A DNA stretch of 63,325 nucleotides, counting the filler, from Rhabdomonas costata (lineage: Eukaryota): NCBI GenBank assembly GCA_019059605.1. It is 46 parts of 46 records of this genome, joined end to end, with 100 filler letters (N's around TTAATTAATTAA, not from the genome) between each part and the next. Parts side by side here need not be neighbours in the genome. Positions count along the whole stretch, not along the records: positions 2,759 to 4,037 come from JAHMHO010020871.1; 45 more parts are not named here. The stretch is one strand, 5' to 3'. Under the pieces are notes generated by a model that worked only from the letters and a program-made list of their open reading frames with translations, had not been told where the DNA came from and ran no database searches. Every line of letters begins with the position of its first letter. Within the stretch, counting starts at the first letter, position 1. The position numbers and the translations under genes are program-made. Below are positions 112 through 48,812 of the stretch, one piece after another.

Positions 112-1232
112 CTTCTCAGCTTTGGGCGGAATCCCCTTGATCCGAGCGTAGAACAGAAGGTGCTCCTCCACGGAGAGGTGCTTCGACCACAGGATGTCGT
201 GCTGCGGGCACAGCCCAATGCTCAGATGGACCTCGTGGATCGAGGTGCGGATGTCGTGGCCGTTGACCAGCGCCGTGCCCGACGTCGGCTCGAACATGCC
301 GCACAGCATCGAAATCGTCGTGGTCTTCCCTACGTAAGACACACGAATTCAAAAAGGATACGATGAAATAATAATGGCACATATAAATTAGATGTTGGCA
401 CACCTGAAGCGCTGCCACAGTGCCAATTAACATTTCATTTTGTGCTAGGCCAAAAAGGCGCCAAAGTCCCTAAAAGGCCTTCAGGGCAAGTGTACACAAG
501 CATTCTGGCCCGCTTTGGTGCCAGCTCAAAGTGCCCATCAGGTGCTCCGGCTCCGGCTCCAGTCCCAGGAGGGGCGCATTTCGGAAGTCACCTGGCGAAT
601 AGGGTAAAGCTTTCAGCCGGTTTGCACGCTCCACTCAGTTGTAAGCGCCGTTTCCCGATGAACAAAAGTGCGAGAGGATAAGTTTCTTTTGCACGTGACA
701 TGAATACCCCTCAGAAGGGCGCAAAAAGGTTACAAAAGGACACAGCATCACTTGCAAGACAACAATTGCACACTAGCATTCAAAACAAGCCTGACGCGCG
801 CGGCGAAAAAGCACCAAAAGTAAAAGGCAGGAAGGGGGATGATTCTATATGCCATGACAAGACATGAGGCTAGAAGGCTGCCAAAAGACTTAAAGGAGAA
901 CCAACAGCTCAAGTTGAAATTCCTGTGCAAGGTCCTTCATTCGAGCTACGGTGGTTAAGGGGTTCCGGAGGTCACCCAGAGAATAGGGCGAATATTAGAG
1001 CCCAAACAAAACCGTCTCCATGATGCTGGGTATAAGACTGGCGATGATGGACATCAGTATATGCCTGTACAAAAACACTTCAGAGCTCTTCGCAGAAGAC
1101 AAGAATCAACTTTACTACTTTCCAAAAGCTAGCGATGAGGGTGTGTATGTGGCGCCGCACACCGGCCCCGTTGGGCCCAAGCAGGCCGAAGCAGCAGTTC
1201 TTGTCGATGCCCAGGCTGAGGTGCCGCACGGC
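112..1232 (-). CDS. ABCA-subfamily ABC transporter, nucleotide-binding domain (2 exons, partial)
   Basis: Exons 1232-1163 ([24 protein letters not shown]) and 329-112 ([10 protein letters not shown]...[11 protein letters not shown]...[15 protein letters not shown]) join across an 833-nt GT-AG phase-1 intron to rebuild Walker A GPNGAGKTT and the ABCA CPQHD Q-loop. Confidence 0.93.
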
Positions 1233-1279
1233 GGGGCATCGACAAGAACTGCTGCTTCGGCCTGCTTGGACCCAAAAAC

Positions 1280-2658: not shown

Positions 2659-2981
2659 NNNNNNNNNNNNNNNNNNNNNNNNNNNNNNNNNNNNNNNNNN
2701 NNTTAATTAATTAANNNNNNNNNNNNNNNNNNNNNNNNNNNNNNNNNNNNNNNNNNNNGGTTTGGTGTAGAGAAGTGCGCTAGTTTTATTGCCGAATCTC
2801 ATCTTTTAAAGGGTCAGTGAAGGAGAGAGAGTGTTTGGGTTCGACTGCCCATAGGTTGCCATTGGCGCGCAACTTCCATGAATGCTTTGCAGACTCCTGA
2901 ATGCAGAAGCTGAATCCAAAGATGACAAGCCTGGACATGAGCGTGGAAACCGATTTGGAAAAAAGCCGGGGGGCACCGAAC

Positions 2982-3846
2982 CTCGTTGTAGTAGGCGAAG
3001 ACGGGGTCAGCCTCGCGAGAGCGGGCCAGCACGTCCTTGACAGGGCCCATGCACATCTCAAAGTGAGGCCTGCGAGGGGAGCGAGCCATAAATTAAAATA
3101 AGCTCCCGTGAAACTGCGGCAGCCACGCCCACGCCCGCACCCTGACAATTCCGTGTGGCACTAAAAGCTTACCACGCGTTCGGGAAAGCTTCCTTGGGGG
3201 TGGGGGCAAGCCTCAGAGTGGATCTAACCTTCCAAAGGGGGAGAAACTGAGGCAGGATGCGGGTCCAAACAATGTGCATGTGTTAATTTCACCCAGCGTG
3301 GACTTTACAAAGTTTTGAATATCCCTCGATCCAACCTTATCAAATGCCACCCCACTGGGAAATCGATTCCATGTATCCCGTACGGCATCCTTCTGCCTCC
3401 CAACCCCTCCCCGCGTATTATTTATTTTCAAATTCGACTACATTCGCATCGGATCCGATGGAATGCTCACACAGGCGGTACAGATCACACAAAGTCCTTT
3501 TCTTTCTTTTTCGCGTCCATCCTTCTTTATTATTGGACCAGGCACTGCCTTGAAAGCGAAACGCAACTCTCGAACCAATGATCTGCCACTGCAAACCTTT
3601 GCCATACGGACAGATCGGCAAATCCTGCGGCCGTCAAGGCTGTGCCTTTCGTTTGAAAAATCACAAAGAAGAATGAGCCACCCAGCAGACAGACCAACAG
3701 ACCAACACAATCAGCGGTCCCCAGGGGAGAGACCTGTTCAAGCGGGCGGTGCGGACGGGGGTCTTGGCCACCACATCAGCGACGGTGTTGTGGTTATGGA
3801 TGAACTCCAGCTCCCCAACACAGTCCCCAGGCCCGAATTCGCACAC
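2982..3846 (-). CDS. PKAR: Protein kinase A regulatory subunit, C-terminal CNB-B domain, trypanosomatid-type (2 exons, partial)
   Basis: Exons 3846-3734 and 3069-2982 splice (phase 2, GT-AG) to VCEFGPGDCVGELEFIHNHNTVADVVAKTPVRTARLNRPHFEMCMGPVKDVLARSREADPVFAYYNE, closely resembling the recalled trypanosome PKAR C-terminus (GELEFLNNHANVADVVA...KLNRRHFEMCLGPVIDVL...YEYY). Confidence 0.88.
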
Positions 3847-4256
3847 CTGAGATCAGATGAAAGCATCACCGAGCATGGCAAAGGGTACGCGTTATCGCAG
3901 AAAGCATAACGAGCGGTTTGCCGGTGGAAAGTTGAACGGGTTTCTTCGCATATTGACGACTCCGCCCAAACTGACGAAAATGTCACCGATATGAGCAAAC
4001 CAACTGTGGAAACGGCGGCCGCTGCCCCCCCCCCCTTNNNNNNNNNNNNNNNNNNNNNNNNNNNNNNNNNNNNNNNNNNNNTTAATTAATTAANNNNNNN
4101 NNNNNNNNNNNNNNNNNNNNNNNNNNNNNNNNNNNNNGTGGTGGTTGAAACGCTGACCTTCCACGCTGTCCAAATTGGGAGAAAGGACTGAAACGAGTCC
4201 TGCGCTGTGTCCAAAACTTCGCCGTGTGCCGGTTTGGCTGTTGGGCTTCCTTCCAG

Positions 4257-17200: not shown

Positions 17201-18956
17201 TAATATTGCAGACATGTGCACGTTTGTTTCACCGATGACGTTCTCTTATGTTGTTTTCTCGCCTTGCGTGCACGCTTGACTGAGACGAAAAGGCAACCAG
17301 CACAAAAAGAAGATTCATTTCATTCATTTTTCCCTCTTAAAAGGCTTCCCTACATGACTCTGCTCTTTTGGGGGACAATTTTATTGAGTAGGGAGTTGAA
17401 ATCTATGGACTTTGTCGATCGATTTGAACAGTATTACATTGGAATAAGCCAGCCCGCGGTGCGGCCCGACCGTAAGGTTGAGGGCACCCCCCCCCCGCGA
17501 CAGACGCCATACGTCTCTGCGCTGGAAGTACACGTGATTAACGGTGACGTGCAGCGGCATGGGTAGCACGCAGGGGTCACCCGATGGCCGGAAAGAGGAG
17601 GCCAGGCCGCTGCAGACCGTGGGGCAATCCCCGAAGAACCGCTTCTGAGGCGAGGAATTCAGCGGGGTGTACCTGCGTGAGTGGTGGGAGGGGGTTTCCA
17701 TAGAGGGCCAGGCAGACGAGGGAGGGGGTGTCAACAGCACGGACACACAAAGCTGAAGCCAGGACCTCTCCCCAAAACGTTGCCGTCATCAAAAGGTCAG
17801 TGCACATTCCATCCGCTGCGGCAACTGCATACCACCACANNNNNNNNNNNNNNNNNNNNNNNNNNNNNNNNNNNNNNNNNNNNTTAATTAATTAANNNNN
17901 NNNNNNNNNNNNNNNNNNNNNNNNNNNNNNNNNNNNNNNTTTTGGGTAAGGTTCCGAAAGATGGAGATTCCAGCAGAATCGTTTTGTGCACGCGGGAATC
18001 CCTTGGCAAACCATTCTGCTGGAATCTCCATTTTTCGGAACCTTTCCCATTCTTACCATTGAAGGAAACAGCAACTTCTGGACGGGAAGCCACGGTTTGT
18101 AGCTCCCATTACAAAGTTGTAGCTGAGAGAGGCATCCCTTTGCTGCCGAGTTTTTGTTTTGTCCTTTTCCTGCGGTTGTGGCGCTCTGCCACTCTGCCCT
18201 CCATTTGCACAGCGGAGTGCTCCCCCGAGGCGCAGCCTGCGGGGGCGGAGCTTGACGGCGACGAGGCATGCTTTTTTCCTTCCTCGCGCCCTGAGTTTCT
18301 GTTTTCGGCACCATTATGTTTCTCTCAGTCTGGAGCTGGGTTATTCGATCAAACTGAAGCAAGGTTGCTCGATGGGTCAAGTTTCGAAGTTGACGGTGGG
18401 GTTACATGGCTCGCGAGCTACCGTTAAGCGACAAGAATCAAAAAACATATTTTTTTTTTGCTAATGCGTTCACTTCGGCTTCTGGGGCCCGGCGCTGCGC
18501 GAGGCCTCTGCCCTAAAATAATTCTGTCCCAGTTGATCGGCAGTGACTCGGGCTGCGCACAGCAAATATCACAAAAGAAATATTGCTGATGCTTCCGGAT
18601 TAACGTTGTTATACGGTGTATTTCTGGTGTGTTAGAGCGAACTGCACATGCAGGGTGCTGAACGGTTCCCAGGAGATGGCGCAGTTTTTTTAGTGACGAA
18701 GGCCGCCGCTGCTGCCACCGGAGCAGACGACTGAGGAACGTTGTTGGGGTTGTTGGGGGAGTGCGGGAGTTGTCGTAGTCAAAAGCGACACAAGAAGGGT
18801 TTACGGGTGGTGGAGACTTTCGGCATAGTTATGTACCTCACCGTCTCCCCACCACCACCACCACCAAAAAATGCTTTCGGACCCACGTGCATTCTGCTCT
18901 CACCTACTCCGCCCCCTCCTGTCCTCCTGTCCTCTGCTGCTGCGATACACTCGCAG

Positions 18957-31890: not shown

Positions 31891-32881
31891 GCTTGCCTGG
31901 AAGGTCGCCCCCTGCCTGGCCTGCGGTAACACCCTGGTGCTGAAGTCCTCGGAGAAGACCCCGCTCTCCGCACTGCTGTTTGCGAAGCTCTGTCACGAGG
32001 TGTGTGTGTGTGTGTGTGGTGGTGGCGTTTGGAGTTTGCATCAGTTCAAAATTTGATGCTATGACACTGTAATCTAAGTGCACACTTGTGCGCAGCATTG
32101 CTCTCCAGAAGGACATTGCATTTTTTATGGATCGGCAGGGCGCATTTTTCGTACCCCTCCGGTTATTTACGGATATTTTGGTCGTACCCCGGGTAATTTG
32201 GTATTTTTACGGAAGTGATGCGCTGTAGTTGATTTTTTTCTTTTATTGGATTTGGTTCTGCACAGGCTTGGTCGTTTTAAAACTGCCTGGTTTTAGAACG
32301 AGTTTTAGAACTCCGTTTTCTTGTTTTCGTTTTTAAACGTTCTTTTTCCTATCCTGGTTTTCTTTTATCGTGTAGATTGGGCTTCCGAACGGAGTCTTCA
32401 ACCTGGTCTCTGGGTTCGGTCCCACCGTCGGGGCCCCGCTGGCGTCCCACAAGGATGTGCTGAAGATTGCCTTCACCGGGTTGCGAATCTTATCTTTCGT
32501 GAACTCAGCTCGATAAGTGTTTGCGTTGTTCTTTAGTGGAGTTTTCTTCCTCTCGTTTTCCTGCTTTTTTTCGGCGCGTCCCAAGGTGCAATAAGAAACG
32601 TCGAAGCCGAAGCAGTCGCGCTTTTTTTTTCCGGTTTTAAAGAAGCCGAGTGTGGACCACTTGTTGTTCTTTTGGTTTGCCGCAAACTCCACTTCTATTT
32701 TTTATTTGTGTGCAGTTCGGGGCCTACCGGCCGAACCATCATGAAGCTCGCGGCGGAGTCGAACCTCAAGAGAGTGACTCTGGAGCTCGGGGGCAAGTCT
32801 CCCAACATTATCTTCGACGACGCTGATCTCGACGTAGCCGTGGCTGGGGCGGCTGTTGGAATCTTCTTCAACCACGGCCAG
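31891..32881 (+). CDS. Aldehyde dehydrogenase, ALDH1/2-like (3 exons, partial)
   Basis: Exons 31891-31999 ([27 protein letters not shown]), 32376-32479 ([14 protein letters not shown]...KIAFTG) and 32716-32881 ([25 protein letters not shown]...FFNHGQ); all phases compatible. Confidence 0.96.
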
Positions 32882-34487
32882 GTGCGGACGCGGGCGCCTG
32901 TCCGTTTTCTCTCTCCGAGCTGGTGAGGTCGTGACCCCTCGCGACTTGCTTACAGTGCAGCCGGGATTGCTAACATACACTCAAACAAACATTAACATCA
33001 ACCAAAACANNNNNNNNNNNNNNNNNNNNNNNNNNNNNNNNNNNNNNNNNNNNTTAATTAATTAANNNNNNNNNNNNNNNNNNNNNNNNNNNNNNNNNNN
33101 NNNNNNNNNGATCGACCTCACCAACCCCGGCGTCAGGGTTGGCAGAGAGACAGAGAAAGAGAGCGGGGGAGGCCAGCTACTCAACGACAACCGACGCAAA
33201 CCACCGATGACAGTCTCGAGAGAAGGAGAAAGCGCTAAAAGACAAGCCCGCAACAGCTCGGTTCGCCACTTTTTCAATCGGGCCGTGCAAAACGGCGTAA
33301 ACTGCCCCTCAAAAAATCATGGAGGGAAACAAGAACAAAGTCAGGACAGGATGGAGAGAGCAGCATGGGCTCCGACCTGCCCAGCTCACACAGGAGCGGC
33401 AGAGCTGCCGTCACAGGGAAGCTCTGTCCCTCACTCAAATCCAGTGAACGCATTTGGTGGTGCCTCCACCATGGGAAAACTGAACTCCCGCCCTTTCTCT
33501 CTGTGTACGCCCTGGGATGTGTACAATGTCTGTTACGGGAAGGCGCCTGCGCGCGCGAACGTACGTTTGTGATAAGTCACTGCAAAAGATAGAGGTGGCC
33601 TCTCACCCCACAGAACAAACCGCTGGGAGGGTGAGCAGCCACACAGACACACAGAGGGAGGAGAGTGTCGGGGGACAGGAGACAGACTACTGCAGCCCAA
33701 CATGGAGAGCAAATTGCCAGCGGTCTGCTGGGGAACAAAGCGCTGCCAACACAGGAGAAGGGTCAACGCGCGAGGCGTGTGTCTGACGGGAAGGGACCCG
33801 CCAGAGACCAGCGCCAGAGAGCGGCAAGCAAACGGTCCCTGTGGGAATGCCTCCGAAAGTGTAGGGCTTGCGTGTGTATGAATGTTTGTAAGGACGGAAA
33901 GGGTGTAAAATACTCTACGGGGTGGGGTGGGGTGACTCCAAACGAATGAAAAGAACAGAGAACCAAAATTCACTTGTAGTAAACTCGGTACCCAAGGAGA
34001 AGGGGGATGGGGGAAGGGGAGGGCGCCAAAGGAGGGTCCGGATCGAGACGGAAACTCCGTCACCAGGACCGCAGGATCAGAGGGGGCGAGTCAAGCGCAC
34101 CGTAAGCAGTGAGGTCCGCCTGAGAGAAAGAGGAAGGGCTTTCCTCCCCTTCCACCCACGTATACCATGTGGTCGACTTCGCTGCCAGAGGCGTCATGTC
34201 CAGACCCCAGGGGCAGCAAGAGCCACACACATAATCCACACAAACGCGCAGACGCAGTTCCTCCCACACCCGCTCTCCTGCACTCAACTGGCAAAAGGAA
34301 TAAATGGAAAAAAAAGAAGTTCAAAAACAAAGCCACAAAGAACACGCGAAAAGAAAGGGACACCAAAAACCAAACACACCCAACACANNNNNNNNNNNNN
34401 NNNNNNNNNNNNNNNNNNNNNNNNNNNNNNNTTAATTAATTAANNNNNNNNNNNNNNNNNNNNNNNNNNNNNNNNNNNNNNNNNNNN

Positions 34488-44645: not shown

Positions 44646-47138
44646 GTATGGAATTTAGAAAAAGAGAACCCCCCCCCACACACACACACCTCCTGGTGGT
44701 GGTTGTGGGGGCTGGTGCTGTGGGTGGTATTGCTGCCGTGGTGGTGGTTTTTTGTCCAGCTGTTTCTTATGTTTGGAGAATCACCTCTCATTTAGCTCCT
44801 AGTCTCCTAGTTGGCCCGATCCGTCTCCTTCAGGCGTCCTTCGACGCGGTTGATTCAACGGTACTTTTTTGCGGTCTCAGAAATGAGGGAGTTCGTTCTT
44901 GTCTCAGAGGAGGCAGGCCCTCCTTGTTCCATTTTTCTTTACAACAGAATCCGGATTTGAGCCAGTATTACCTCTTCTAGGGCGTGGGTCAAGCATATTT
45001 TTGGTGTCAATCCGCTTTTGTCTTTCATTTTCCTTCAAAGAACGTCAAAGTATCTTGTCTCAAAGTCACAAGCTCAAGGGTGTCGTCTGAGCATAGTTGC
45101 GGGCGAAGTAATTGCCAAAACCCCAATACTATACCATTGTTCGAGGGAATATTAAAGCCCGCTGAGGCGTTGCAGGTGGCGCAAGATCAGTCAATCAGAA
45201 TGTTGCTGGAGTTCGCTCAGGACGGGGCAGGTATGACTCGTTCGGAATTCTAGCTTCTATTTCACCAACTGTCTTTTACTTCCGCCCCAGTGTTGGGCAT
45301 CTGGGAGGGAGCGAGCAGAGAGGATTTCGCATTTTCCTTTAAGCCTGGGACCCGCGGGGCTGGTGGGGGCCTGTTGTCCTGAGCCGGCACCCCTATAGGA
45401 CCCCCACCCCACNNNNNNNNNNNNNNNNNNNNNNNNNNNNNNNNNNNNNNNNNNNNTTAATTAATTAANNNNNNNNNNNNNNNNNNNNNNNNNNNNNNNN
45501 NNNNNNNNNNNNCGGGTTTTGTTGCGGAGGTTGTGTAATTGCTGATTTTGATTTGCCTTATATCCAATCACGACGAAGCCGTCACAATAACGAGCCATCC
45601 ATTCCAGAGCGCCGCTTCCGACTGATGCTATCGCAAATGGATATAAGGCAAATCAAAATCAGCAATTACACAACCTCCGCAACAATACAAGTTAGAACAC
45701 GAACGGGAACTGAAGCGGTGCACTAAGGACGGTAATCAGAATTCAGAAAGCAGAAGCGAAGCCATTCCAAGAAGCACTGGTGACTTTCCAGACCCGGAGA
45801 TGAAATAGCTCCACATGAAGGCTCAAAAGCAGCAGTGTGAGAGAGGCATGAGTTTATTGGAAATTTCGGTGCTGCAAAGAAGTGGGCGAGGTAGAAAAGG
45901 TTCACTCCTCAACGGCAGAGTTCGGAAGGACCGCAACGTTGCTGTCCGTGGACCGACCCCAGTCATCAGAGCTAAACGCGAAGAGCCGAAGTGGGCTCAC
46001 TAGCTTGAACTCCAGCGTATGCACCTGCAAGCACGAAGGCATCCGGAAGCTGCCAATGCACACACCGATTCCAGTCCTCCCGTGATACCGCGAAATTTCC
46101 ACAAAAAGGCTCTTTCACAAAGATGAAGCAGTGCTAAGCACATCGGACACCATTTTGCAGGGTGACAGATTCTAGATTCTGAAATCAACACGCTGACTGC
46201 TGAAAGGGGAGGCCAAATGAAAGCATGTGGAATGTGTAAAAAGAAAGGGCACACGTATAAATGTTAACGTATAAGTGCATATGGCCGAATCGCCTGGGCG
46301 AAGTAGGAAGTGGGATAGAGGAAAGCAAAAAGCACCGTCTCGAAGGCTCGAAAGCAGCAGCAGGGCTGCCGCAGAGGAGGCTGGCGAGGGGGAAGGGCAA
46401 CAAAGCCGGGCCGGCAGCCTCTCGAGGCCATCCCGTGACACCCCACAGGACAACCCTGAGCGCATACGAATGCACTCGATGCAGGATATGATGTCACTTC
46501 CCGCCGCACGACAGGATCGTATAATTCAGAATGGCATCATCGGGACACACTGTCCAGAAGCGAAAAAAAAAGGGGGGGGGGGCGAAAACTGGCGAAACTG
46601 TCGTGAACCCGTGCCGCTGCAACATTAATGCCCAATGCCAACCTGGCGAACGTCCATCTCATTTTCTTTTGGCAAGCCCGCATGTTTACGGTGGAGCTTT
46701 GACTCTACTTTGATTCAGTGCGAACACCGGATCCTAGCTGCCCACACCATCACACCATTTCCCCCGTTCACCATTCTCATACCAACACAANNNNNNNNNN
46801 NNNNNNNNNNNNNNNNNNNNNNNNNNNNNNNNNNTTAATTAATTAANNNNNNNNNNNNNNNNNNNNNNNNNNNNNNNNNNNNNNNNNNNNTTCCGAAGGA
46901 AACTGAAGTTTTCGTCTTATTTGCAGCACATTGTTTTGTTTTTGCCCTGCTTTTGGACCTGTGTGGAGCTGCTCCACGCTCCCGTTGTCTCCACCACTCC
47001 ACCACGACAAGGGAAAATCCCACCCAAATTGTACTTTAAGCTCGAAATTGTAATATTTAATGCTTATCGAGTGAAAATTCTCGGTTTTGAGGTGCCGCGG
47101 GGAGAGGGCGCATCTTCTCTCCTTTCCCGACTGTTCAG

Positions 47139-47397
47139 CCTGCTCTCCAACTCCATCAAGTTCACCACCAGTGGATCAGTCAGCCTCAGTGTTGGCTTGC
47201 GTCTATGCCAGGACCTCTCCGGGCCCACCGTGCCCTCCCAGCCCCCCGCTGAGGCTGCTCAGATCACGCTGGAAGTAACCGACACCGGGCTGGGTCTGAG
47301 TCCGGAGCAGGCAGACATCCTCTTCCGGCCCTTCGCGCAAGCCTCTGCGTCAACCTATGCTCTCTACGGGGGCTCTGGGCTGGGTCTCGTGATTACT
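47139..47397 (+). CDS. Sensor histidine kinase, HATPase_c domain exon
   Basis: N box LLSNSIKFT, G1 VTDTGLGL, F box LFRPFAQA and G2 YGGSGLGLVIT on one AG/GT-bounded exon. Confidence 0.93.
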
Positions 47398-48812
47398 GTG
47401 GTGCTGGTGGGAGGTCGAGGGTTGTGTCTGCATGGAAGGATCTGTTTCAGTGGGTTGGCAAATTGGATTGGGTGCTGGTTTGCTATCGCCGACGCTCCGA
47501 CGGAAGCAATTGCTCTCGGTGATTCGAACCGCCAACGCAAAAGCGATCGAACCCTGACCGCATTTGCTATCGCACCGTCAGGGCTTTGGGTCGGTAGCAT
47601 TTGCTACCGAGCGGGGCGGGCCTATACCGCATCGGTCCTCTGTGTTTTTTCCCCGACTGACATCGCCTCCTTGAGGATATGCCCCCGGCGGGGTTTGGGG
47701 GGCTCTCATGTCCTGTTGGTCGGCATCACTCTTACCGACATCGCCACTACCACCATTCCCGCAATGCCCCGATCGCACCTGAAACCTTGCGGGCTCAGTG
47801 TCGAAAGCTAAGGCTGGGTTCGTTCAAGTATGCGATAATGCCATGGAAAACATGCATCTCATATATATAGTCATAGCTCCACGGGGAAAGGGACCGTGGT
47901 ATTGCATGAGCACAAAGTCAGTTGGATTTTTAATCTCTACAAATAGAAAGTGGCCAGAAATTGGCCATTCTGACCTCTGGAAGTTTCTCAATAAAATCAG
48001 CGCCCACCTTACTCGATTCGACACAGCCCTTGGTGTTTTAGGTTTTGCAGCGGAATCTGAAAAAAAAAACAATCAACTGCGTCACAACAGTTCAGTTGCA
48101 AAAACACAGAAATCACAGAGAAAAGTGGAACGGAACGGGCTCACCCAACCACCCAAACACACCCCCACNNNNNNNNNNNNNNNNNNNNNNNNNNNNNNNN
48201 NNNNNNNNNNNNTTAATTAATTAANNNNNNNNNNNNNNNNNNNNNNNNNNNNNNNNNNNNNNNNNNNNGAGTTTTGGGATCATCGACCATAATTGAGTTT
48301 ATCACGAAACCCAGATTGCTGCTACATGCCCATACTTCCGACTCTTGGTCAGCATTGCTAACCGTTCGGAAAGATATTAGCGCAGTGAGATGGCGCACGA
48401 CAAAACAGCGAAAGGCACTGCGGCGGATGAGTGAGCACTGGGCGACACCGGAGCACAGAAGAAACTGAAAATTTACAGAAGACTCCTCAACGTGATAACC
48501 TCAATTATGGTCGATGATCCCAAAATGAGAAACAGGAAGATTTTTAGCTTTACAAGATTCCGCAGGACGTGATGCTGCAGAAAACACAGATAGTCACGGC
48601 ACTGCGTCGCAGCAGTTCGGGTGGCACGACAAAACAACGAACGTGGAACGAAAGTGGAGAGGAAAAGAGACGCGGGTAACCGCCAACAGGGGTTCGTTCG
48701 GTGCATACAACCGTGCAAAAGGATCTGTTCTTATAGGAAATTGGATATATCTTCACCTCGCATTCTCTGAGGGATGATGCACGCGTTGGGACACCCGCGC
48801 TTGCGTTTGCAG

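What the first reader, a model, noticed from the sequence alone, without database searches (positions are those of the whole stretch)
2982..3846. PKA regulatory subunit with a cAMP-incompatible, nucleoside-type pocket in an intron-rich (non-kinetoplastid) host
Seen: the spliced phosphate-binding cassette is GELEFIHNHNTVADV instead of canonical GExALxxxxPRAATV. The Arg that binds the cAMP phosphate is Thr, the Ala is Glu and the Thr is Asp, and a YY pair follows near the C-terminus. Known: trypanosomatid PKA-R has the same type of substitutions, is not activated by cAMP and binds purine nucleosides; kinetoplastids have almost no cis-introns. Inference: the nucleoside-sensing PKA is present in a euglenid/diplonemid-type organism, so the ligand switch would predate kinetoplastids.
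Basis: partly seen in the sequence, partly recalled or inferred. Interest (0 to 1): 0.7.

Follow-up and report, generated by a model that had tools for sequence, protein, structure and literature searches.

The report
Nucleoside-type PKA regulator in a euglenid
Two exons on a small contig from a free-living euglenid encode the tail of a protein kinase A regulatory subunit carrying the pocket changes that make the trypanosome protein bind nucleosides instead of cAMP, so this switch likely arose in the common ancestor of euglenids, diplonemids and trypanosomes, long before parasitism.

Summary
Confirmed. Window 3846-3734 and 3069-2982 (minus strand) are two GT-AG exons giving 67 residues, the second ligand pocket and lid helix of a PKA regulatory (R) core. 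The best solved matches are trypanosome nucleoside-binding PKAR (E 9e-14; mammalian RI-alpha 7e-4; Euglena's cAMP-type R 0.3). The pocket has the trypanosome Glu, lacks the cAMP Arg, and keeps the Val and the lid YY. The host is a euglenid close to Rhabdomonas and holds about 12 such pockets. All 15 relatives with an organism name (27 looked up) are euglenozoans. Trees put them in one clade with both ligand-tested trypanosomatid proteins and reject a kinetoplastid-only PKAR1+PKAR3 clade (AU p 0.004), against a published suggestion. The same core also sits in a Leishmania STE kinase. Binding and splicing are inferred, not measured. I found no paper stating this; theses were not searchable. The scan noted the tandem build and a hybrid pocket earlier on other contigs of this genome.

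The parts
3734..3846 (-). Coding exon: beta-barrel end of CNB-B with the ribose-binding cassette and the start of the hinge helix (113 nt, phase 0 start, phase 2 end)
   Evidence: (PF00027 E 8.8e-7); the same intron position before VC(E/T)F occurs in paralogous loci L002 and L013
3772..3816 (-). B-site cassette GELEFIHNHNTVADV: Glu at T. brucei 435, His 440, Thr at the cAMP-Arg position (442), Val 443, Asp 445
3070..3733 (-). 664-nt conventional GT-AG intron, phase 2, closed in all three frames
   Evidence: splicing is inferred from in-register homology, no transcript seen
2982..3069 (-). Coding exon: hinge and C helices plus the alpha-D lid (88 nt), followed by a GT donor at 2981-2980
2988..3005 (-). 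P-V-F-A-Y-Y: hinge Pro (T. brucei 480), capping aromatic (Phe for Tyr482), lid Tyr484/Tyr485
2759..4037 (.). The whole 1279-bp contig (G000:C20871); flanking linkers are artificial and no further exon of the gene was found on it

Best explanation
The two exons encode the second ligand pocket and lid helix of a euglenid PKA regulatory core that likely binds purine nucleosides (inosine, guanosine) rather than cAMP, and that is probably the last core of a protein with two such cores in one chain. Shown by sequence: the Glu, the missing Arg, the Val and the YY lid. Inferred from trypanosome structures and mutants: the Glu binds the ribose and clashes with a cyclic phosphate, and the YY helix closes over the purine base. 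Filling this B site, then the A site, would bend the B/C helix and release a PKA catalytic subunit from the RRxT/S inhibitor site. Inferred from trees: the nucleoside-type core arose once, from a duplicate of the cAMP-type R subunit, before euglenids, diplonemids and kinetoplastids split. It was then multiplied into single-core (PKAR1, PKAR3), multi-core and kinase-fused forms, while a cAMP-type R was kept alongside in euglenids.
For: Best solved matches are trypanosome PKAR for both exons. All three residues that Ober et al. had to change to convert site B to cyclic nucleotides (E435, N442, V443) are in the nucleoside state, and the Glu carries most of the effect (1556-fold loss of inosine potency when both Glu are removed). 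The lid YY, described there as found only in trypanosomatids and worth 82-fold in affinity, is present. The B-site Glu is in 150 of 150 non-canonical cores that cover the position (153 rows) and 0 of 30 canonical cores; the Arg is in 2 of 149 against 29 of 30. The non-canonical cores form one clade (54 rows, 100/99). Inside it, 52 rows (100/97) hold both the PKAR1 stand-in and the PKAR3-type protein; both subfamilies have been shown to bind nucleosides or their analogues, so the window is bracketed by tested binders. Window with the canonical outgroup is rejected (AU p 0.005); a kinetoplastid-only PKAR1+PKAR3 clade is rejected (p 0.004). The nearest rows are the last cores of two two-core proteins, Peranema P0008 and unnamed P0010 (98/83). 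Locus L003 of the same genome shows one core ending and the next beginning on one contig. The model of P0008 has two separately folded cores (pLDDT 83.9) that match holoenzyme R subunits (TM 0.68-0.73 by target length).
Against: Only 67 residues of this gene are in hand; its A site, inhibitor site and N-terminus are on other contigs and cannot be linked. Three pocket-adjacent residues differ from T. brucei: H430 is Cys (the commonest state, 68 of 150), N438 is His (32 of 150), and capping Tyr482 is Phe (31 of 146). The lid motif is VFAYY, not (K/N)YxYY. The set behind the 150-of-150 count was gathered mainly with a B-site query, which inflates B-site conservation. A sites are variable: Glu in 88 of 144. 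Leishmania PKAR3 binds nucleoside analogues but was not dissociated from its kinase by them, so binding need not mean activation. In the 29-row tree the window is unresolved inside a 7-row clade that includes single-core or truncated proteins. The AU groups were named after seeing a tree and used LG+G4 without a site mixture.
Confidence: 0.7

Rival explanations
1. A PKAR3-like anchor: the core binds nucleoside in site B as a structural or tuning ligand, but the protein mainly tethers PKA catalytic subunits to cytoskeleton or flagellum and is not switched off by the ligand.
For: PKAR3 binds nucleoside analogues at nM affinity, yet its holoenzyme was not dissociated. The euglenid clade plus PKAR3 clade is not rejected (AU p 0.29) and fits better than grouping with PKAR1 (p 0.077). 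Many A sites in this clade have lost the Glu, e.g. L003, L012 and L020 in this genome.
Against: The two closest cores keep a Glu-type A site and an RRxT inhibitor site (P0008 core 2, P0010 core 2). Direct grouping of the window with PKAR3 is weakly rejected (p 0.041).
Confidence: 0.17
2. The pocket has moved on to another ligand (a modified nucleoside, or mixed use with cIMP/cGMP through a hybrid A site), so it excludes cAMP at site B but is not a simple inosine/guanosine sensor.
For: 18 of 144 A sites carry both the Glu and the Arg, including the closest named relative. The matching engineered mutant responds to cIMP at 24 uM. Cys430, His438 and Phe482 differ from T. brucei. Bachmaier et al. 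2019 note that sequence alone did not predict the ligand.
Against: That same mutant kept nM inosine potency and showed no cAMP response. The ribose-binding and lid residues are intact.
Confidence: 0.08
3. Not a euglenid ancestral trait: the contig is a kinetoplastid contaminant, a horizontal transfer, or a convergent pocket.
For: The assembly is fragmented and holds a second, ordinary SSU rRNA (L010), so foreign DNA is present.
Against: A 1.3-kb contig with one complete GT-AG intron and two further splice sites. An intron position shared with two paralogues. Nearest named relatives come from four euglenid genera. The whole core, not just the pocket, is monophyletic with the trypanosomatid proteins.
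Confidence: 0.03

Closest known systems
Trypanosomatid PKAR1 (T. brucei 6FLO/6H4G, T. cruzi 6FTF/6HYI/6HYQ; Bachmaier 2019 PMC6440977, Ober 2024 PMC10959531)
   Same: B-site E433/E435/H440/V443/D445, no phosphate Arg, Pro-kinked alpha-D lid with YY; same clade of R cores; LRR N-terminus in the close relative P0010.
   Different: Euglenid host with cis-introns; not a PKAR1 orthologue (AU p 0.011); closest relatives have two cores per chain; Cys430, His438, Phe482; A sites in relatives often keep the Pro-Arg of the cAMP pocket.
Leishmania PKAR3 (Fischer Weinberger 2024, PMC11006142)
   Same: Glu-type B site, cAMP-refractory type; a sister relation to the euglenid clade is not rejected (p 0.29).
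   Different: PKAR3 is single-core with a long disordered N-terminus; the L. martiniquensis protein taken as PKAR3 (by length and tree) has a more diverged cassette and HH in place of YY.
Canonical cAMP-dependent PKA-R (bovine RI-alpha 1RGS; Euglena gracilis 6RSX)
   Same: CNB-B fold and tandem CNB-A/B core; a canonical cassette also exists in this genome (L044).
   Different: The canonical Ala, Arg and Ala positions are Glu, Thr and Val here; no alpha-D YY lid; much weaker match (E 7e-4 and 0.3).
Multi-core R proteins of euglenids and diplonemids (EukProt: Entosiphon 5 cores, Ploeotia 3, Peranema 2 and 3, Lacrimia 3, Sulcionema 3)
   Same: Same B pocket and lid; the window groups with the last core of the Peranema two-core protein.
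   Different: Uncharacterised predicted proteins; no description found in the paper searches.

Membership tests
Nucleoside-binding (trypanosomatid-type) PKA-R | Glu at the B-site Ala position (T. brucei E435) | tested here: met
Nucleoside-binding (trypanosomatid-type) PKA-R | No phosphate-binding Arg in site B (N442) and Val at 443 | tested here: met
   Thr and Val; T. cruzi also has Thr there
Nucleoside-binding (trypanosomatid-type) PKA-R | C-terminal alpha-D lid after a hinge Pro, with capping aromatic and YY | tested here: met
   P-V-F-A-Y-Y; the cap is Phe not Tyr, and the strict (K/N)YxYY motif is not matched
Nucleoside-binding (trypanosomatid-type) PKA-R | Descent from the same clade of R cores | tested here: met
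   100/97 clade with PKAR1- and PKAR3-type rows; canonical placement rejected, p 0.005
Nucleoside-binding (trypanosomatid-type) PKA-R | Nucleoside-type A site (E311, no Arg318, V319) in the same core | tested here: inconclusive
   Not on this contig; unlinked A-site exons in the genome are mixed; relatives vary
Nucleoside-binding (trypanosomatid-type) PKA-R | Inhibitor site RRx(T/S/A) ahead of CNB-A | tested here: inconclusive
   Not on this contig; present in both closest cores and on other contigs of the genome (L003, L017, L022)
Nucleoside-binding (trypanosomatid-type) PKA-R | nM binding of inosine/guanosine, no cAMP binding, kinase release | not testable with these tools
   needs ITC and kinase assays
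PKAR1 subfamily (LRR plus single core) | Orthology with PKAR1 | tested here: not met
   AU p 0.011 for window plus PKAR1 clade; the PKAR1 clade holds diplonemid but no named euglenid rows
PKAR3 subfamily | Orthology with PKAR3 | tested here: inconclusive
   Window alone p 0.041; whole euglenid clade as sister p 0.29
Canonical cAMP-dependent PKA-R | Cassette F-G-E-[LIV]-A-L-x4-[PV]-R-[ANQV]-A | tested here: not met
   Consensus as quoted in PMC10354285; the Ala and Arg are absent here
Multi-core euglenozoan R proteins | Two or more cores in one chain | tested here: inconclusive
   Nearest rows are last cores of two-core proteins and L003 shows the build in this genome, but this contig holds part of one core only

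The most novel reading that the evidence does not exclude
The nucleoside-gated R core is an ancestral euglenozoan sensor module behind a whole signalling network parallel to cAMP. The B site and lid switched first. The core was then chained two to five times in one polypeptide, each copy able to hold a kinase subunit and tuned to different nucleosides. It was also grafted, inhibitor site included, onto a PAS-HATPase-STE kinase that Leishmania still carries, making that kinase a second, unrecognised nucleoside-regulated kinase. This contig is the last core of an LRR-core-core protein of that network in a euglenid that makes its own purines.
Probability: 0.35. Interest if true: 0.78.

Novelty: new variant of a known kind. 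Interest (0 to 1): 0.56.

Why it matters
Nucleoside-activated PKA is the one described eukaryotic exception to cyclic-nucleotide control of CNB domains in the papers read, and it has been shown only in parasites. One paper suggests its two isoforms arose early in kinetoplastids. Another leaves open whether it is a purine gauge for purine-auxotrophic parasites or a true second-messenger receptor. Finding the pocket across euglenids and diplonemids, in a genome that also has de novo purine genes and a cAMP-type cassette, argues that it is not an adaptation to parasitism or purine starvation. It moves the question into cultivable free-living species such as Euglena, where both PKA types could be compared in one cell. 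Natural half-converted pockets give a testable order of events for the ligand switch.

Tried and rejected
Expression and splicing: no RNA holder listed. The three runs found are contigs of one sample; they showed no joint across the intron and only adapter-like loose ends. They are not independent support. A search for the gene's own full-length protein with exon 1 found 5 relatives among 8 candidates and no exact match. A search for PKA catalytic subunits in the genome with PF00433 rang nowhere, controls included, so it is uninformative; PKA-C presence was not tested otherwise. The ESM Atlas gave only generic CNB clusters. Foldseek's top eight ranks for the two-core model were Plasmodium PKG (TM about 0.2), which I attribute to both having four CNB domains; they were not taken as a PKG identity. 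Linking this contig to neighbouring exons (L002 as first core, LRR exons L035/L036/L038) was not possible; L002's grouping with Peranema core 1 is unstarred (85/82). Read-through of exon 2 without a further splice would add 55 residues before a stop; this was considered and cannot be excluded. A Pfam scan of 40 of the 155 long frames in the window found nothing related to this gene.

Full report
Observation. The window is 46 unrelated contigs of 1277-1291 bp joined by N-linkers. The finding lies on one, 2759-4037, which is G000:C20871. On the minus strand, 3846-3734 and 3069-2982 are exons of 113 and 88 nt. They are separated by a 664-nt GT-AG intron with stops in all three frames, with an AG before exon 1 and a GT after exon 2; the sum is 67 codons and GC3 is 0.81-0.83. 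Exon 1 alone matches trypanosome PKAR structures best (6FLO E 8.8e-14, 6FTF 1e-12, 6H4G 1.3e-11), then mammalian RI-alpha (7e-4) and the Euglena cAMP-type R, 6RSX (0.3). Exon 2 alone matches 3 of 177,635 PDB sequences at E<=10, all trypanosomal PKAR, at residues 263-288, directly after exon 1's 224-261. The splice is inferred from this register; no transcript was seen.

The pocket. Ober et al. 2024 (PMC10959531: passages, section 9 and the Discussion read; 12 of 26 supplementary files searched) converted T. brucei site B to cyclic nucleotides with E435A, N442R and V443A. The window has Glu, Thr and Val at these positions. It also has E433, H440, D445, the hinge Pro480, an aromatic cap (Phe for Tyr482) and Tyr484/Tyr485. 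[quoted passage not shown] Differences from T. brucei are Cys at 430, His at 438 and Phe at 482, all common states in the wider family (68 of 150, 32 of 150, 31 of 146).

The host. G000 has paraflagellar-rod genes. One exon is 68/68 identical to a EukProt protein of Rhabdomonas costata, with Bodo at 85%, Diplonema at 80% and Trypanosoma at 80-83%. Two further exons match at 38/40 and 46/47, and a fourth at 24/28. I read the host as a euglenid of or near that genus. One SSU rRNA is strongly expanded (1988 nt for 1259 model positions), and a second, ordinary SSU shows some foreign DNA (that the long one is euglenid-like and the other green-algal-like is my recall, not a call). The genome holds 12 distinct B-type cassettes with the Glu and no Arg among the fetched loci (L001-L008, L013, L014, L023, L028; two are cut short and L004/L005 may be alleles). 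It also holds LRR N-terminal exons, A-type cassettes of mixed state including a Glu-plus-Arg one (L022), and one canonical cAMP-type cassette (L044). It has exon-split SAICAR synthetase and a PurH match, so it likely makes its own purines; origin from the foreign DNA was not excluded.

Relatives. Two searches with paralogous exons from this genome and one with the window's exon gave 140 proteins with non-canonical cores and 16 with canonical cores. I looked up 27 non-canonical ones. All 15 with an organism are euglenozoans: Entosiphon, Ploeotia, Peranema and Euglena longa; Diplonema, Lacrimia, Sulcionema and one with an Hpha prefix (recalled as Hemistasia); and two Leishmania proteins. Twelve had no organism. 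The two canonical ones looked up were Vitrella and Nonionella. Across 183 aligned cores, the B-site Glu is in 150 of 150 non-canonical rows covering it and 0 of 30 canonical rows; the Arg is in 2 of 149 against 29 of 30; Tyr485 is in 142 of 145. The A site is loose: Glu in 88 of 144, Glu plus Arg in 18 of 144. The set was gathered mostly with a B-site query, which biases the B-site counts upward. Glu plus Arg is the state of Ober's mutant 4, which kept nM inosine potency.

Architecture. 27 of the 140 proteins were flagged with two or more cores; two are single cores split by an insertion, leaving 25. Entosiphon P0006 has five, and Ploeotia, Lacrimia and Sulcionema proteins have three; most cores have their own RRx(S/T/A/G)-type site. 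L003 shows the end of one core and the start of the next on one contig of this genome. The window's best matches are the second cores of P0010 (LRR plus two cores, unnamed; 87% and 71% for the two exons) and of Peranema P0008 (79% and 81%). An AlphaFold2 model of P0008 (45-row alignment, pLDDT 83.9, pTM 0.51) has two folded cores joined by a disordered linker. Its best superpositions are holoenzyme R subunits (TM 0.68-0.73 by target); ligand-bound trypanosome structures give the highest identity (42-43%) but TM 0.45-0.47, as expected for the other conformation.

Phylogeny. FastTree was run on all 183 rows and IQ-TREE LG+G4 on 62 of them, chosen for names and spread. The non-canonical cores form one clade (100/99). 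Two unnamed LRR proteins whose B site has Glu plus Arg (P0218, P0269) branch first. The other 52 rows (100/97) include the PKAR1 clade (stand-in P0158, E 1e-115 to 6FTF; with Diplonema and Lacrimia), the PKAR3-type clade, kinase-fused cores and several multi-core clades. The window sits with P0008 core 2 and P0010 core 2 (98/83) in a clade whose named members are all euglenids (99/98, 95/90). In a 29-row tree it is unresolved within a 7-row clade (99/97). AU tests on the 29 rows: PKAR1 stand-in plus PKAR3 clade p 0.004; window plus PKAR1 0.011; window plus PKAR3 0.041; euglenid clade plus PKAR1 0.077; euglenid clade plus PKAR3 0.29; window plus canonical 0.005. Groups were named after seeing trees, the window fills 23% of columns, and no mixture model was used.

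Mechanism. Most likely the B site binds a 6-oxopurine nucleoside through the Glu pair, sealed by the YY lid, and gates release of a PKA catalytic subunit as in T. brucei. Both trypanosomatid subfamilies that bracket this clade bind nucleosides or their analogues. PKAR3, however, was not dissociated from its kinase by them (PMC11006142: passages and section 6 read), which keeps an anchoring role open. Shown: sequence, splice signals, homology, clade. Inferred: splicing, ligand, kinase release, multi-core build of this particular gene.

What is in print. Fischer Weinberger et al. suggest PKAR1 and PKAR3 arose early in kinetoplastid evolution and sampled no euglenid or diplonemid by name in the main text; their supplementary tables were not opened. 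Ober 2024 has no mention of euglenids or diplonemids in the main text. Bachmaier 2019 (PMC6440977: passages, 4 supplements searched) has no mention of Euglena or Euglenozoa. PMC10354285 (passages) remarks on a correlation between Euglenozoa-specific cAMP effectors and absence of cAMP-dependent PKA, without showing euglenid PKA-R sequences in the passages seen. PMC12083921 and bioRxiv 2023.11.08.566240 had nothing relevant in passages. Searches found no paper describing the pocket or the multi-core build outside kinetoplastids. The library lacks most subscription papers and all theses. The PDB entry 6RSX, a Euglena R labelled cAMP-dependent, hints that the question has been looked at. Two earlier notes of this scan on other contigs of this genome report the hybrid A pocket and the tandem build; I had reached both before reading them.

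Verdict. A real gene fragment and a correct first reading, extended here by host placement, family-wide counts and tree tests. It is a new variant of a known kind, of clear interest to specialists, and still without any binding data.

Noticed in passing
P0251/P0288 (Leishmania, 2754 aa), residues about 354-650; relatives P0222, P0224, P0233, P0234, P0256, P0268, P0270, P0277, P0280: A large STE-type kinase with PAS (and, in some, HATPase) domains carries a complete R core: a pseudo-substrate RRxAV/RRxGV site and Glu-type pockets without the Arg. Parsons 2005 (PMC1266030, passages) noted the CNB-PAS-kinase build of LmjF15.1200 but not the pocket type. It may be a second nucleoside-regulated kinase; the lid YY is only partly kept.
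   Followed up: partly
P0220 (unnamed, 557 aa): LRR protein at the base of the PKAR1 clade with a nearly canonical cAMP-type A site and a nucleoside-type B site, a near-natural counterpart of Ober's engineered mutant 6.
   Followed up: partly
P0218, P0269 (P0218 unnamed; P0269 not looked up): Earliest-branching non-canonical cores: Glu-type A site, B site with both Glu and Arg, weak lid; organism unknown.
   Followed up: partly
P0247 (Vitrella), P0231 (Nonionella) and others: Multi-core R proteins of the canonical cAMP type also exist outside Euglenozoa, so chaining of R cores arose more than once.
   Followed up: no
L044:1210 (G000:C8911): Canonical cAMP-type cassette in the same genome.
   Followed up: partly
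L009:852-2839 and L010:1-1157: Two different SSU rRNAs in the assembly: one with about 700 nt of expansions, one ordinary, pointing to some foreign DNA.
   Followed up: partly
window 46891-47808 (+), 32537-32923 (+), 17384-17785 (-): Unrelated contigs with HATPase_c (E 2.5e-8), aldehyde dehydrogenase (3.4e-18) and a weak AMPK-beta match.
   Followed up: no
window 116-330 and about 1160-1250 (-): Read by eye as exons of an ABC-A type transporter (Walker A and Q-loop region); the Pfam scan of one frame gave no hit.
   Followed up: no
contig ends throughout the window and loose ends: Low-complexity CA/GT-rich ends resembling whole-genome-amplification primers (recalled, not tested).
   Followed up: no
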